64,000 nt of DNA from Escherichia coli (GCF_050920415.1 NZ_CP169309.1); one strand, 5' to 3'. Positions 58,181 through 61,704 are shown, numbered from the stretch's first letter. Numbers and translations are program-made. Notes: generated from the sequence alone by a model not told the origin.

Positions 58181-58268
58181 CTTTTTTGATTTGCCCCTAG
58201 ATGAATGCACGGGCGGAGAGGAAATTCCCCTTCGCCCGTGTCAGTATAATTACCCGTTTATAGGGCGA

Positions 58269-60185
58269 TTATTTTTTGTCTTTGACTTCTTCAAATTCAG
58301 CGTCGACAACATCGTCATCTTTCGCGTTGTTTGCAGAAGCATCAGCACCGGCAGTCTGCTGCTGGGCATGTTGCTGCTGGGCGATTTCCATCAGTTTCTG
58401 GGAAACCTGTGCCAGTTCCTGCATTTTCGCTTCGATAGCGGCTTTGTCTTCACCTTTCAGAGCAGTTTCCAGTGCAGTCAGCGCAGACTCGATAGCAGTT
58501 TTGTCGTCAGCTGGCAGTTTATCGCCTGCTTCTTCAACCTGCTTACGGGTGCTGTGCAGCAGATGGTCGCCCTGGTTGCGAGTCTGTACCAGCTCTTCAA
58601 ACTTACGGTCAGCTTCGGCGTTCGCTTCTGCGTCGCGTACCATTTTCTGGATTTCATCTTCGTTCAGACCAGAAGAAGCCTTGATGGTGATCTTCTGCTC
58701 TTTACCGCTGTTTTTATCTTTCGCGGAAACGTGCAGGATACCGTCAGCATCGATATCGAAGGTAACTTCGATCTGCGGCATACCGCGCGGTGCCGGGTTG
58801 ATGCCATCCAGGTTGAACTGACCCAGAGATTTGTTATCAGCCGCACGTTTACGTTCACCCTGCAGCACATGGATGGTTACCGCAGACTGGTTGTCTTCAG
58901 CGGTAGAGAACACCTGGCTGTGCTTGGTCGGGATAGTGGTGTTTTTCGCGATCAGCGTCGTCATCACACCGCCCATGGTTTCGATACCCAGAGACAGCGG
59001 GGTAACGTCCAGCAGCAGTACGTCTTTTACGTCACCAGTCAGAACACCACCCTGAACAGCAGCACCGATGGCTACAGCTTCGTCCGGGTTAACGTCTTTA
59101 CGCGGCTCTTTACCAAAGAATTCAGCAACTTTCTTCTGAACCATTGGCATACGAGTCTGACCACCAACGAGGATAACGTCGTCGATATCAGATACGGACA
59201 GGCCAGCGTCCTGCAGTGCAACTTTCAGCGGCTCAATGGAACGGTTTACCAGATCTTCAACCAGGCTTTCCAGTTTCGCACGAGTCACTTTGATGTTCAT
59301 GTGTTTCGGACCGGTCGCGTCTGCAGTGATGTACGGCAGGTTAACGTCGGTCTGCTGAGCGGAAGACAGCTCGATTTTCGCTTTTTCTGCCGCTTCTTTC
59401 AGGCGCTGCATTGCCAGCGGATCGTTGCGCAGGTCAATGCCCTGATCTTTCTTGAATTCTTCAACCAGATAGTTAATCAGACGGCTGTCGAAGTCTTCAC
59501 CACCCAGGTGGGTATCACCGTTGGTTGCCAGAACTTCGAAGGTTTTTTCGCCGTCAACTTCGTCGATTTCGATAATGGAAATATCGAAAGTACCACCACC
59601 CAGGTCATAAACCGCGATAGTACGGTTGCCAGTACCTTTGTCCAGACCATAAGCCAGCGCAGCTGCGGTCGGTTCGTTGATGATACGTTTTACTTCCAGA
59701 CCAGCGATACGGCCTGCGTCTTTGGTTGCCTGACGCTGAGCATCGTTAAAGTATGCCGGTACGGTAATAACAGCTTCAGTTACCGGTTCGCCCAGGTAAT
59801 CTTCCGCGGTTTTCTTCATTTTTTTCAGCACTTCAGCAGAGATCTGCGGCGGTGCCATTTTCTGGCCTTTAACTTCGACCCATGCGTCGCCGTTATCAGC
59901 AGCAATAATTTTGAATGGCATGATGGAAACATCACGCTGTACTTCTTCGTCCTGGAAGCGGCGGCCAATCAGGCGTTTAATCGCAAACAGGGTGTTTTGC
60001 GGGTTTGTCACTGCCTGACGTTTAGCCGGCTGACCAACCAGAGTTTCACCATCCTGGGTATAGGCAATGATAGAAGGCGTGGTGCGATCGCCTTCGGCGT
60101 TCTCCAGCACTCGCGGAGTGGTGCCATCCATAATCGCTACACAAGAGTTGGTAGTACCCAGGTCGATACCAATTATTTTACCCAT
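58269..60185 (-). CDS. dnaK: Chaperone DnaK (Hsp70)
   Basis: 638-aa [24 protein letters not shown]... Confidence 0.98.
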
Positions 60186-60350
60186 CTAAACGTCTCCACT
60201 ATATATTCGGTCATCATGTGGTTGTGAGTCTGTAATAGGGGCGAAACGTCTGGTTTCAACTGCCCAATTTCATTTTTTTGCAGACTCACTCACTGCGGTT
60301 GACTACTAAATGGGGTCGTAACCCACGTCATCAAGGGGGAGATGCAAAAA
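60186..60350 (-). promoter_or_regulatory. dnaK heat-shock (sigma-32) promoter region
   Basis: Minus strand shows CTTGATG...CCCCATTT (plus 60308..60345) and TTGAAAC...CCCCTATT (plus 60234..60259), matching the sigma-32 consensus TTGAAA / CCCCATNT. Confidence 0.7.
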
Positions 60351-60990: not shown

Positions 60991-61704
60991 ATGAATGTTA
61001 ATTACCTGAATGATTCAGATCTGGATTTTCTCCAGCATTGTAGTGAGGAACAATTGGCAAATTTCGCCCGGCTGCTCACCCATAATGAAAAAGGCAAAAC
61101 TCGCCTCTCCAGCGTACTGATGCGCAACGAACTGTTTAAATCGATGGAAGGACATCCCGAGCAACATCGCCGCAACTGGCAGCTGATTGCCGGAGAATTA
61201 CAGCATTTTGGTGGCGATAGTATCGCCAACAAACTGCGTGGACACGGTAAATTGTATCGGGCCATTTTGCTCGATGTTTCAAAACGATTGAAGCTGAAAG
61301 CCGACAAAGAGATGTCTACGTTTGAAATTGAGCAACAGTTACTGGAACAATTTCTGCGTAATACCTGGAAGAAAATGGACGAGGAACATAAGCAGGAGTT
61401 TCTGCACGCGGTCGATGCCAGGGTGAATGAGCTGGAAGAGCTGCTGCCGCTGCTGATGAAAGACAAATTATTGGCAAAAGGCGTGTCGCATTTGCTTTCC
61501 AGCCAATTGACCCGCATTTTACGCACCCACGCAGCAATGAGCGTACTTGGGCATGGTTTGCTGCGCGGCGCGGGGCTGGGAGGCCCTGTAGGCGCGGCAC
61601 TAAATGGGGTTAAAGCGGTCAGCGGCAGCGCCTATCGCGTGACGATTCCAGCCGTACTGCAAATCGCCTGCCTGCGCCGGATGGTTAGTGCCACTCAGGT
61701 CTGA
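60991..61704 (+). CDS. yaaW: UPF0174 protein YaaW
   Basis: 237-aa ORF at the yaaW position between yaaI and satP. Confidence 0.85.
   Translation: MNVNYLNDSDLDFLQHCSEEQLANFARLLTHNEKGKTRLSSVLMRNELFKSMEGHPEQHRRNWQLIAGELQHFGGDSIANKLRGHGKLYRAILLDVSKRLKLKADKEMSTFEIEQQLLEQFLRNTWKKMDEEHKQEFLHAVDARVNELEELLPLLMKDKLLAKGVSHLLSSQLTRILRTHAAMSVLGHGLLRGAGLGGPVGAALNGVKAVSGSAYRVTIPAVLQIACLRRMVSATQV

What the first reader, a model, noticed from the sequence alone, without database searches (positions are those of the whole stretch)
61002..61526. Long antisense ORF inside yaaW (htgA/mbiA position)
A 174-codon ORF lies fully within yaaW on the opposite strand, at the position of the disputed K-12 gene htgA/mbiA. 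I did not call it as a gene, but its conservation is a known curiosity.
Basis: partly seen in the sequence, partly recalled or inferred. Interest (0 to 1): 0.15.

Follow-up and report, generated by a model that had tools for sequence, protein, structure and literature searches.

The report
Known htgA/mbiA antisense ORF in yaaW
The long reading frame on the opposite strand of the E. coli gene yaaW is real and is the already described, disputed "gene" htgA/mbiA, but its sequence evolves as if only yaaW mattered, so it is most likely a by-product of yaaW's composition rather than a second protein-coding gene.

Summary
Observation confirmed. A 174-codon ORF (GTG 61526 to TAA 61002-61004, minus strand) lies wholly inside yaaW (60991-61704, +). 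Its ATG at 61517 is the start of K-12 mbiA/htgA (b0012).

The window is an E. coli chromosome. The ORF is 10 codons longer than in K-12, because yaaW Leu14 is CTC here rather than CTT.

The case is already known (Delaye 2008; Fellner 2014).

The ORF is only mildly unusual. The third positions of the two frames face each other. Stops can arise only at NNY-Tyr or NNT-His/Gln in YaaW. Synonymous recodings of YaaW give an ORF of at least 174 codons in 8-20% of trials.

The frame is open only in Escherichia. It carries 3-8 stops in Citrobacter, Salmonella, Kluyvera and Pseudescherichia.

Truncated alleles are common: 161 aa in 1,501 and 145 aa in 248 of 5,426 genomes.

Antisense-frame dN/dS, conditional on yaaW-synonymous changes, is 0.69. 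That is no lower than in controls without an ORF (about 0.4). yaaW itself has dN/dS of about 0.02.

The product is 24% Ser and 9% Cys, has no family and no relatives outside this locus, and folds at pLDDT 28.

Verdict: already known, most likely non-functional as a protein, low interest.

The parts
61002..61526 (-). Antisense ORF as reported: GTG start at 61526, 174 sense codons, TAA stop at 61004-61002.
   Evidence: The GTG occurs only in E. coli sensu stricto. It is GTC or GTA in Escherichia sp. E1V33 and E. albertii. The Shine-Dalgarno pairing energy upstream is -0.9 kcal/mol.
61005..61517 (-). mbiA/htgA-equivalent coding frame from the ATG used in the K-12 annotation: 171 codons here, 161 in K-12.
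   Evidence: Anti-SD pairing of the 20 nt upstream is -3.9 kcal/mol, within the ordinary range. No Pfam or NCBIfam family. 24% Ser and 9.4% Cys. AlphaFold2 mean pLDDT 28.4.
60991..61704 (+). yaaW, the host gene (237 codons). It is the real protein-coding gene at this locus.
   Evidence: Pfam PF03981 Ubiq_cyt_C_chap (7.7e-16) and PF13099 DUF3944 (1.2e-14). dN/dS is 0.014-0.02 between Escherichia species. Orthologues of 714-726 nt occur in Citrobacter, Salmonella, Kluyvera and Pseudescherichia.
61632..61634 (-). In-frame TAG that bounds the open antisense frame upstream. It is made by yaaW Ala214-Tyr215 (GCC TAT).
   Evidence: A stop is present at this position (yaaW nt 644) in 15 of the 16 full-length sequences listed; Salmonella diarizonae lacks it.
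61032..61032 (.). Third base of yaaW Leu14. C here leaves the frame open. T (K-12 type) makes an antisense TGA and shortens the ORF by 10 codons.
   Evidence: The T allele is in 1,501 complete E. coli genomes and the C allele in 3,878.
61080..61080 (.). Third base of yaaW Thr30. T makes an antisense TGA, giving a 145-codon allele.
   Evidence: The T allele is in 248 genomes and the C allele in 5,154. It is also present in E. albertii.
61602..61609 (-). CCCCATTT, an exact match to the sigma-32 -10 consensus CCCCATNT, about 85 nt upstream of the ATG. No matching -35 element.
   Evidence: The best combined sigma-32 score is 10 of 14, no better than shuffles (48% of shuffles reach it). The motif is present in all 14 E. 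coli sequences but absent from the three other Escherichia lineages that keep the ORF.

Best explanation
This is the E. coli htgA/mbiA ORF, and its length is most likely a passive by-product of yaaW, not a second protein-coding gene. The two frames are in the 123/213 phase, with third codon positions facing each other. In this phase an antisense stop can arise only where YaaW has NNY followed by Tyr, or NNT followed by His or Gln. YaaW has only 3 Tyr. Of its His/Gln residues, 12 follow Glu, Gln, Lys or Trp, whose codons cannot end in T, so only about 10 positions can ever create a stop. In the Escherichia ancestor these positions carried A-, G- or C-ending codons, which opened the frame. Too little time has passed since then for most of them to change. 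Where a single C-to-T transition suffices (Leu14, Thr30), truncated alleles are already common. Strong purifying selection on YaaW freezes antisense codon positions 1 and 2, so the antisense 'protein' looks conserved without being selected. Shown here: the phase, the at-risk positions, the Escherichia-only distribution, the truncation polymorphisms and the lack of any antisense-frame selection signal. Inferred: the protein product, if made at all, has no selected function. Antisense transcription of the locus is reported in the literature and is not contradicted.
For: (1) Phase and stop contexts. Only 11 of the 23 His/Gln/Tyr contexts inside the open stretch can create a stop. P(open) is 0.046 analytically, and an ORF of at least 174 codons appears in 8-20% of synonymous recodings.
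(2) The frame is open in all 17 Escherichia sequences over nt 92-527. It is broken by 3-8 stops in that span in 11 outgroup sequences from Citrobacter, Salmonella, Kluyvera, Pseudescherichia and others.
(3) The C-terminus is not conserved. Alleles of 171, 161 and 145 aa occur. The two truncating alleles are in 1,501 and 248 of 5,426 complete genomes. Two of the 3 sites where a C-to-T change makes a stop are polymorphic, against 13 of 113 for comparable sites.
(4) No purifying selection shows in the antisense frame. At yaaW 4-fold sites, transversions that change the antisense amino acid occur at 8 of 24 sites. Transversions silent in both frames occur at 4 of 21 sites. Odds ratios of 0.3 or less are rejected at p=0.005. 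dSN/dSS is 0.69 (bootstrap 0.37-1.26), against 0.39 in the yaaW 3' part outside the ORF and 0.41 in outgroups with a broken frame.
(5) Synonymous change is not suppressed. dS of the overlapped part is 0.55-0.67, against 0.21-0.33 for satP and 0.20-0.77 for yaaI. Polymorphism density is 0.060 per site inside the ORF and 0.059 outside.
(6) yaaW's dN/dS is lower in Escherichia than in most outgroup pairs of comparable dS, and this holds both inside and outside the ORF span, so it is gene-wide rather than tied to the overlap.
(7) The product is 24% Ser and 9.4% Cys, beyond the maxima of 10% and 3.8% among 44 proteins of the window. This is an extreme form of the Ser-rich composition seen when any gene is translated in this antisense phase. 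It has no family, no PDB relative and pLDDT 28 with no secondary structure.
(8) Only 6 hits appear among 1.84 billion representative proteins. Those examined are the deliberately annotated cluster P0001 and two fragments called on indel-ridden assemblies of this same locus.
(9) PGAP calls nothing on this strand in the 14 records fetched.
(10) PMC4182739 states that conservation in this antisense frame 'might be solely an artefact'.
Against: K-12's curated annotation keeps mbiA as a CDS. Delaye et al. 2008 cite cloning, Northern blots, protein labelling and promoter mapping from the original 1993 work. An intragenic promoter in htgA/yaaW was active in vitro (PMC2731890). RNA-seq shows overlapping transcription for yaaW-mbiA (PMC12288877). 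Fellner et al. 2014 report a phenotype for htgA (mbiA). That paper was not held, so only its title was seen. From memory, they used strand-specific stop mutants and saw altered biofilm formation. The 145-codon core was open in all 17 Escherichia sequences, and none of five possible core-truncating alleles was found in 5,426 genomes. My rough neutral expectation for that is about 0.5-1 event, so the absence is uninformative. The selection tests rest on about 45 four-fold sites and can reject strong constraint but not weak constraint (omega above about 0.5).
Confidence: 0.7

Rival explanations
1. mbiA/htgA is a genuine, evolutionarily young overlapping protein-coding gene that arose by overprinting in the Escherichia/Shigella lineage. 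Its roughly 145-residue core is translated and affects a phenotype, reported as biofilm modification. Selection on it is weak or recent.
For: It is annotated as a CDS in K-12. Delaye 2008 argue for overprinting and for a slower yaaW rate. The Fellner 2014 title reports a phenotype. The core nt 92-527 is open in all 17 Escherichia sequences despite dS of up to about 0.7-0.9 in the overlapped core. Zero of five possible core-truncating alleles were found in 5,426 genomes. The ATG has an ordinary SD-like pairing of -3.9 kcal/mol. Antisense transcription is reported.
Against: There is no antisense-frame purifying selection: dSN/dSS is 0.69 against about 0.4 in ORF-less controls, and amino-acid-changing transversions are not depleted. 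Synonymous rate and polymorphism are not reduced. The lower omega in Escherichia is gene-wide. The C-terminal 10-26 residues are dispensable in 28% and 4.6% of genomes. The composition is extreme and no fold is predicted. No consensus promoter was found, and the sigma-32-like -10 motif is absent from other Escherichia that keep the ORF. Delaye 2008 themselves note that htgA is not sigma-32 induced and that the syn/nonsyn pattern may merely reflect yaaW in this phase.
Confidence: 0.2
2. The functional entity is a non-coding antisense transcript. It modulates yaaW expression by transcriptional interference or RNase III-type duplex processing (an 'excludon'). The ORF within it is incidental.
For: yaaW-mbiA is listed among divergent excludons seen in at least 50% of E. 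coli RNA-seq samples (PMC12288877). An in vitro active intragenic promoter is reported (PMC2731890). Northern evidence is cited by Delaye 2008. This reading would reconcile reported phenotypes with the absence of protein-level selection found here.
Against: No Rfam family matches the region even at E up to 1. No sigma-70-like promoter (at least 9 of 12) was found on the minus strand upstream. Synonymous sites in the overlap evolve at least as fast as in neighbouring genes, so no extra RNA-level constraint is visible. The excludon listing partly follows from the K-12 annotation itself. Pervasive low-level antisense transcription is common in E. coli (established knowledge).
Confidence: 0.1

Closest known systems
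htgA / mbiA (b0012, YP_009518733.1) of E. coli K-12 MG1655, antisense in yaaW (b0011)
   Same: Same locus, strand, reading frame and ATG: K-12 10830 corresponds to window 61517. There are 2 amino-acid differences over the shared 161 residues. The neighbours are the same: dnaK, yaaI, yaaW, satP, mog.
   Different: The allele here runs 10 codons further (171 aa from the ATG, 174 from the GTG). yaaW Leu14 is CTC instead of CTT, which removes the K-12 TGA. In the 5,426 complete genomes the allele without that TGA is in 3,878 and the K-12 type is in 1,501.
Experimentally supported antisense overlapping genes of E. coli O157:H7 (nog1/citC, ano, laoB, asa, pop/ompA)
   Same: All are ORFs embedded antisense in an annotated gene, taxonomically restricted, and proposed to arise by overprinting.
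   Different: According to their titles and abstracts, those cases rest on RNA-seq plus ribosome profiling and competitive-growth phenotypes. No translation data could be examined here, and the evolutionary tests run here show no protein-level constraint.
Long 'shadow' ORFs antisense to well-conserved or highly expressed genes (for example the 678-codon ORF opposite dnaK in this window)
   Same: In both, a long stop-free antisense frame is explained by the codon and amino-acid usage of the sense gene. No family, no selection on the antisense frame.
   Different: The dnaK shadow ORF is in the codon-on-codon phase and depends on avoidance of TTA, CTA and TCA codons. The yaaW one is in the third-on-third phase and depends on few Tyr and on which residues precede His/Gln.

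Membership tests
htgA/mbiA (E. coli K-12 b0012) orthologue | Located antisense within yaaW, between yaaI and satP, next to dnaK | tested here: met
   the gene order and strands match K-12 in reverse orientation.
htgA/mbiA (E. coli K-12 b0012) orthologue | Same reading frame and start codon as the K-12 CDS 10830..11315 | tested here: met
   the ATG at yaaW nt 527 is window 61517, and the phase is 123/213 as described in PMC2268670.
htgA/mbiA (E. coli K-12 b0012) orthologue | High sequence identity of the predicted product | tested here: met
   2 differences in 161 shared residues against K-12. [quoted passage not shown]
Functional overlapping (overprinted) protein-coding gene | ORF integrity maintained across the lineage that carries it | tested here: inconclusive
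   The core of 145 codons is open in 17 of 17 Escherichia sequences, and none of 5 possible core-truncating alleles occurs in 5,426 genomes. However, the C-terminal 10-26 codons are lost in 1,501 and 248 genomes. By my rough estimate, neutral expectation also predicts about 0-1 core events.
Functional overlapping (overprinted) protein-coding gene | Purifying selection on the overlapping frame beyond that imposed by the host gene | tested here: not met
   dSN/dSS is 0.69 against 0.39-0.41 in controls. Transversions occur at 8 of 24 sites against 4 of 21. There is no reduction of dS or of polymorphism. Power is limited to excluding omega below about 0.3-0.5.
Functional overlapping (overprinted) protein-coding gene | Own promoter and ribosome-binding site | tested here: inconclusive
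   No sigma-70-like site with at least 9 of 12 matches lies upstream on the minus strand. A sigma-32 -10-like CCCCATTT has no -35 partner and is not conserved in other Escherichia. SD pairing of -3.9 kcal/mol is ordinary. Consensus scans cannot exclude weak promoters.
Functional overlapping (overprinted) protein-coding gene | Direct evidence of translation (ribosome profiling, peptides) | not testable with these tools
   No expression data are available. The Fellner 2014 paper and the Li 2014 supplement were not held.
Sigma-32 heat-shock regulon member (original htgA claim) | Sigma-32 promoter (CTTGAAA, 13-15 nt spacer, CCCCATNT) upstream | tested here: not met
   the best combined match is 10 of 14, and 48% of shuffles reach it. 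Only the -10 half is present. PMC2268670 reports that htgA is not sigma-32 induced.

The most novel reading that the evidence does not exclude
The 145-codon core (window 61083-61517, minus strand) is a very young, weakly selected, Ser/Cys-rich disordered protein gene. It was born by overprinting in the Escherichia ancestor and has been kept open in all sampled Escherichia. Its C-terminal tail is still free to vary. This would make it a natural snapshot of de novo gene birth inside an existing gene.
Probability: 0.15. Interest if true: 0.45.

Novelty: already known. Interest (0 to 1): 0.1.

Why it matters
It matters little for discovery. The htgA/mbiA-yaaW overlap has been in the literature since 1993 and 2008, and it is a standard example in papers on overlapping genes.

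The value of this check is mainly corrective. The ORF's length and apparent conservation are what the third-on-third antisense phase produces from YaaW's own sequence under purifying selection. The C-terminus is polymorphic in about a third of E. coli genomes. No protein-level constraint is detectable.

This supports leaving the ORF unannotated in automatic pipelines. It also urges caution in citing it as a proven case of overprinting. If translation and function were nevertheless demonstrated, it would be a useful model of a barely selected new-born gene.

Tried and rejected
(1) Sigma-32 heat-shock gene. Rejected: only a -10-like octamer is present, there is no -35, and it is not conserved beyond E. 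coli. The literature says it is not sigma-32 induced.

(2) Homologues elsewhere. The word-index search found 4 proteins and the exhaustive search of 1.84 billion representatives found 6. Two examined (P0002, P0004) come from E. coli-like assemblies with 12-13 indels in yaaW. Gene callers picked antisense fragments there, so they are artefacts, not independent genes.

(3) Known RNA family in the region: none was found, even at E up to 1.

(4) Structure route. AlphaFold2 on the single sequence gave pLDDT 28 and no secondary structure, so no fold search was attempted. The PDB sequence search returned nothing.

(5) Delaye's argument that the overlap slows yaaW evolution. Re-examined: omega is indeed low in Escherichia. 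But it is equally low in the 3' part of yaaW outside the ORF, and dS is not reduced, so the effect is not tied to the overlap.

(6) Attempts to read Fellner et al. 2014 and the Li et al. 2014 ribosome-profiling supplement failed because neither is held. Eleven other papers that cite the pair were opened with a term search. Three gave usable text: PMC4182739, PMC2731890 and PMC12288877. PMC4683798 only lists the pair as a known example, one has only a table row, and the rest cite the pair only in their reference lists.

(7) Searches for five hypothetical core-truncating alleles in 5,426 genomes found nothing. This is uninformative on its own. Four of them need specific transversions, and the queries assume the window's local haplotype.

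Full report
**1. What is there.**

- The ORF listing returns an ORF at 61002..61526 on the minus strand: 174 codons with a GTG start. It lies wholly inside a 237-codon plus-strand ORF at 60991..61704.
- The 1.7-kb region is 100% identical to E. coli NZ_CP169399.1. It is 95% or more identical to 5,424 of 5,426 complete E. coli genomes.
- The neighbours are dnaK, yaaI, yaaW, satP and mog, in reverse orientation relative to K-12.
- In the curated K-12 record, yaaW (b0011) is at 10643..11356 and mbiA (b0012, 'uncharacterized protein MbiA') is at 10830..11315 on the other strand.
- Coordinate mapping puts the K-12 mbiA ATG at window 61517, the 4th codon of the ORF.
- The open frame runs 209 codons, from a TAG at 61634-61632 to the TAA at 61004-61002.
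- K-12 has an extra TGA at yaaW nt 44, because Leu14 is CTT there and CTC here. Its ORF is therefore 161 codons from the ATG, against 171 here.

**2. Is it more than chance?**

- The two frames are in the 123/213 phase, with third positions opposite each other (also stated in PMC2268670).
- In this phase an antisense stop needs a sense NNY followed by a Tyr codon, or NNT followed by a His or Gln codon.
- YaaW has 3 Tyr. Of the 23 His/Gln/Tyr contexts inside the open stretch, 12 follow Glu, Gln, Lys or Trp, whose codons cannot end in T. That leaves 11 at-risk positions.
- With the window's codon usage, the probability that all stay open is 0.046.
- Redrawing synonymous codons for the fixed YaaW protein gives an ORF of at least 174 codons in 8% of 20,000 trials. 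Permuting yaaW's own codons gives 20%.
- In the same 64 kb, 13 antisense ORFs of at least 174 codons lie inside 45 proxy genes. One is a 678-codon ORF opposite dnaK.
- The ORF is therefore at the favourable tail of what YaaW's composition allows, but it is not an outlier that demands selection.

**3. Distribution.**

- A genome-contig scan with YaaW returned 17 loci.
- The antisense frame is open in E. coli, a divergent 'E. coli' SCPM-O-B-8794 lineage, Escherichia sp. E1V33 and E. albertii. E. albertii has a TGA at nt 92.
- The frame carries 3-8 stops between nt 14 and nt 527 in three Citrobacter species, Salmonella enterica diarizonae, four Kluyvera species, Pseudescherichia vulneris and two further Enterobacteriaceae. 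This agrees with Delaye et al. 2008.
- The GTG at 61526 exists only in E. coli proper.
- The ATG is also present in 7 of 11 outgroups whose frame is broken. It is made from YaaW Arg175(CGC)-Ile176.

**4. Population data.**

- Among 14 E. coli strains, the ORF from the ATG is 171 aa in 9, 161 aa in 4 and 145 aa in 1.
- I used 41-mers centred on the variable base. Megablast needs a 28-base exact word, so a central mismatch is not found.
- The TGA-at-nt-44 allele is in 1,501 genomes and the open allele in 3,878.
- The TGA-at-nt-92 allele is in 248 genomes and the open allele in 5,154.
- Five hypothetical alleles that would truncate the 145-codon core were found in no genome: Gly54 GGT, Gly84 GGT, Leu138 CTT, Ser166 TCT and Ser171 AGT.
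- That absence has little weight. In 14 strains only 5 of 56 purine four-fold positions carry any transversion, and only 13 of 113 synonymous pyrimidine positions are C/T polymorphic. From these rates I infer that roughly 0.5-1 event would be expected.
- By contrast, 2 of the 3 sites where a single C-to-T change makes a stop are polymorphic. Stop-creating changes are clearly tolerated.

**5.

- yaaW is under strong purifying selection. dN/dS is 0.014-0.020 between Escherichia species.
- For the antisense frame I conditioned on changes that are synonymous in yaaW.
- (a) At yaaW four-fold sites within nt 92-527, transversions that change the antisense amino acid occur at 8 of 24 sites. Transversions silent in both frames occur at 4 of 21 sites. 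An odds ratio of 0.5 or less is disfavoured (p=0.036) and 0.3 or less is rejected (p=0.005).
- (b) An OLGenie-style estimate gives dSN/dSS = 0.69 (bootstrap 0.37-1.26) in the ORF core. The same statistic is 0.39 in the part of yaaW outside the ORF and 0.41 in outgroups whose frame is broken. The baseline produced by transition bias is thus about 0.4, and the ORF is not below it.
- (c) Dual coding should depress synonymous change, but it does not. dS of the overlapped part is 0.55-0.67, against 0.21-0.33 for satP and 0.20-0.77 for yaaI. Polymorphism density within E. coli is 0.060 per site inside and 0.059 outside.
- (d) Delaye et al. argued that yaaW evolves more slowly where htgA exists. I do see a low omega in Escherichia: 0.015-0.033, against 0.024-0.063 in outgroup pairs of similar dS. 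The 3' part of yaaW outside the ORF shows a similarly low omega (0.012-0.037 against 0.04-0.16). The counts are only 2-5 changes. The effect is therefore gene-wide, not overlap-specific.
- PMC4182739 makes the general point that conservation in this antisense frame can be an artefact of selection on the sense frame.

**6. Signals and product.**

- No sigma-70-like site with at least 9 of 12 matches lies on the minus strand upstream of the ORF.
- An exact sigma-32 -10-like CCCCATTT sits at 61609-61602, but without a -35. The combined score of 10 of 14 is reached by 48% of shuffles.
- That motif is present in all 14 E. coli sequences but replaced in the other three Escherichia lineages that keep the ORF.
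- Delaye et al. record that htgA is not sigma-32 induced and that its existence is controversial.
- SD pairing before the ATG is -3.9 kcal/mol. The median is -3.5 for proxy gene starts, and 19% of random 20-mers reach -4.0. Before the GTG it is -0.9.
- The product is 24% Ser, 9.4% Cys, 9.4% Arg, 1.2% Gly and 0% His. The maxima among 44 window proteins are 10% Ser and 3.8% Cys. This is an exaggerated version of what any gene yields when translated in this phase, where Ser averages 16%.
- The product has no Pfam or NCBIfam family and no PDB relative. AlphaFold2 gives pLDDT 28.4 with no secondary structure. This was a single-sequence run, so it is weak evidence.
- Only 6 hits appear among 1.84 billion representatives. 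Those examined are the deliberately annotated cluster and fragments called on indel-ridden assemblies of the same locus.
- The 14 PGAP-annotated E. coli records fetched have no gene on this strand.

**7. Evidence on the other side.**

- The literature reports an in vitro active intragenic promoter in htgA/yaaW (PMC2731890).
- RNA-seq shows overlapping transcription of yaaW-mbiA in at least half of the analysed samples (PMC12288877).
- The original work included cloning, Northern blots and protein labelling, as summarised.
- Fellner et al. 2014 report a phenotype. I saw only the title and the paper is not held. My recollection is that they used strand-specific stop mutants and saw altered biofilm formation.
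- These points keep two rivals alive: a weakly selected young gene (0.2) and a functional antisense RNA (0.1). Neither translation nor function could be tested with the tools available.

**8. Verdict.**

- The finding is real and correctly interpreted, and it is already known.
- The best-supported explanation (0.7) is that the ORF is a passive shadow of yaaW. It was opened by chance in the Escherichia ancestor, looks conserved because YaaW is conserved, and is already decaying from its 3' end.
- Interest is low.

Noticed in passing
window 60991-61704 (+), yaaW; RefSeq records: RefSeq/PGAP names yaaW 'msyB: acidic protein MsyB' in every row listed and in all 14 PGAP records fetched. The NCBIfam equivalog NF007593 (PRK10236.1), titled 'acidic protein MsyB', matches YaaW over its full length (520 bits, 237 of 237 positions). 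The true MsyB (b1051, 124 aa) instead matches NF008544 'MysB family protein'. The model name looks mislabelled, and the error propagates to RefSeq genome annotations.
   Followed up: yes
window 58191-60227 (+), opposite dnaK (58269-60185, -): A 678-codon ORF lies antisense to dnaK and is longer than dnaK itself (638 codons). It is in the codon-on-codon phase. The whole dnaK antisense frame is stop-free (639 codons), so dnaK uses no TTA, CTA or TCA codons. It is a classic shadow ORF produced by strong codon bias, and it fooled a longest-ORF gene proxy.
   Followed up: partly
window 60991-61704 versus L004-L006: Between Escherichia species, yaaW has a much higher synonymous divergence (dS 0.6-1.0, highest in its 3' third at 0.8-1.2) than its immediate neighbour satP (0.21-0.33). 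The YaaW protein is nevertheless 97-98% identical. In the GTDB 'E. coli' representative SCPM-O-B-8794, yaaW is 88.9% identical in DNA while yaaI and satP are 93%. This may reflect codon-bias differences or local recombination.
   Followed up: partly
window 60991-61704 (+): YaaW matches Pfam PF03981 (ubiquinol-cytochrome c chaperone, E=7.7e-16, residues 58-220) and also DUF3944 (residues 5-39). This fits K-12's product name 'putative enzyme-specific chaperone YaaW'.
   Followed up: no
summary; hit H30 NZ_CP114792.1: Three of the 5,429 matching places for this chromosomal locus are on records typed as plasmids. One genome (strain T2) matches in two places with only 78% coverage, which suggests a disruption near yaaI. 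Two of the 5,426 genomes have no match at all.
   Followed up: no
L033 (ENA ERZ11448917 contig_355) and L034 (GCA_002230715.1 NLPH01000021.1): Both are E. coli-like assemblies with 12-13 indels across yaaW. In L033, satP and dnaK are also split into fragments. In both, gene callers emitted antisense fragments of yaaW as 'proteins'. This shows how error-rich assemblies seed protein databases with spurious htgA-like entries.
   Followed up: partly
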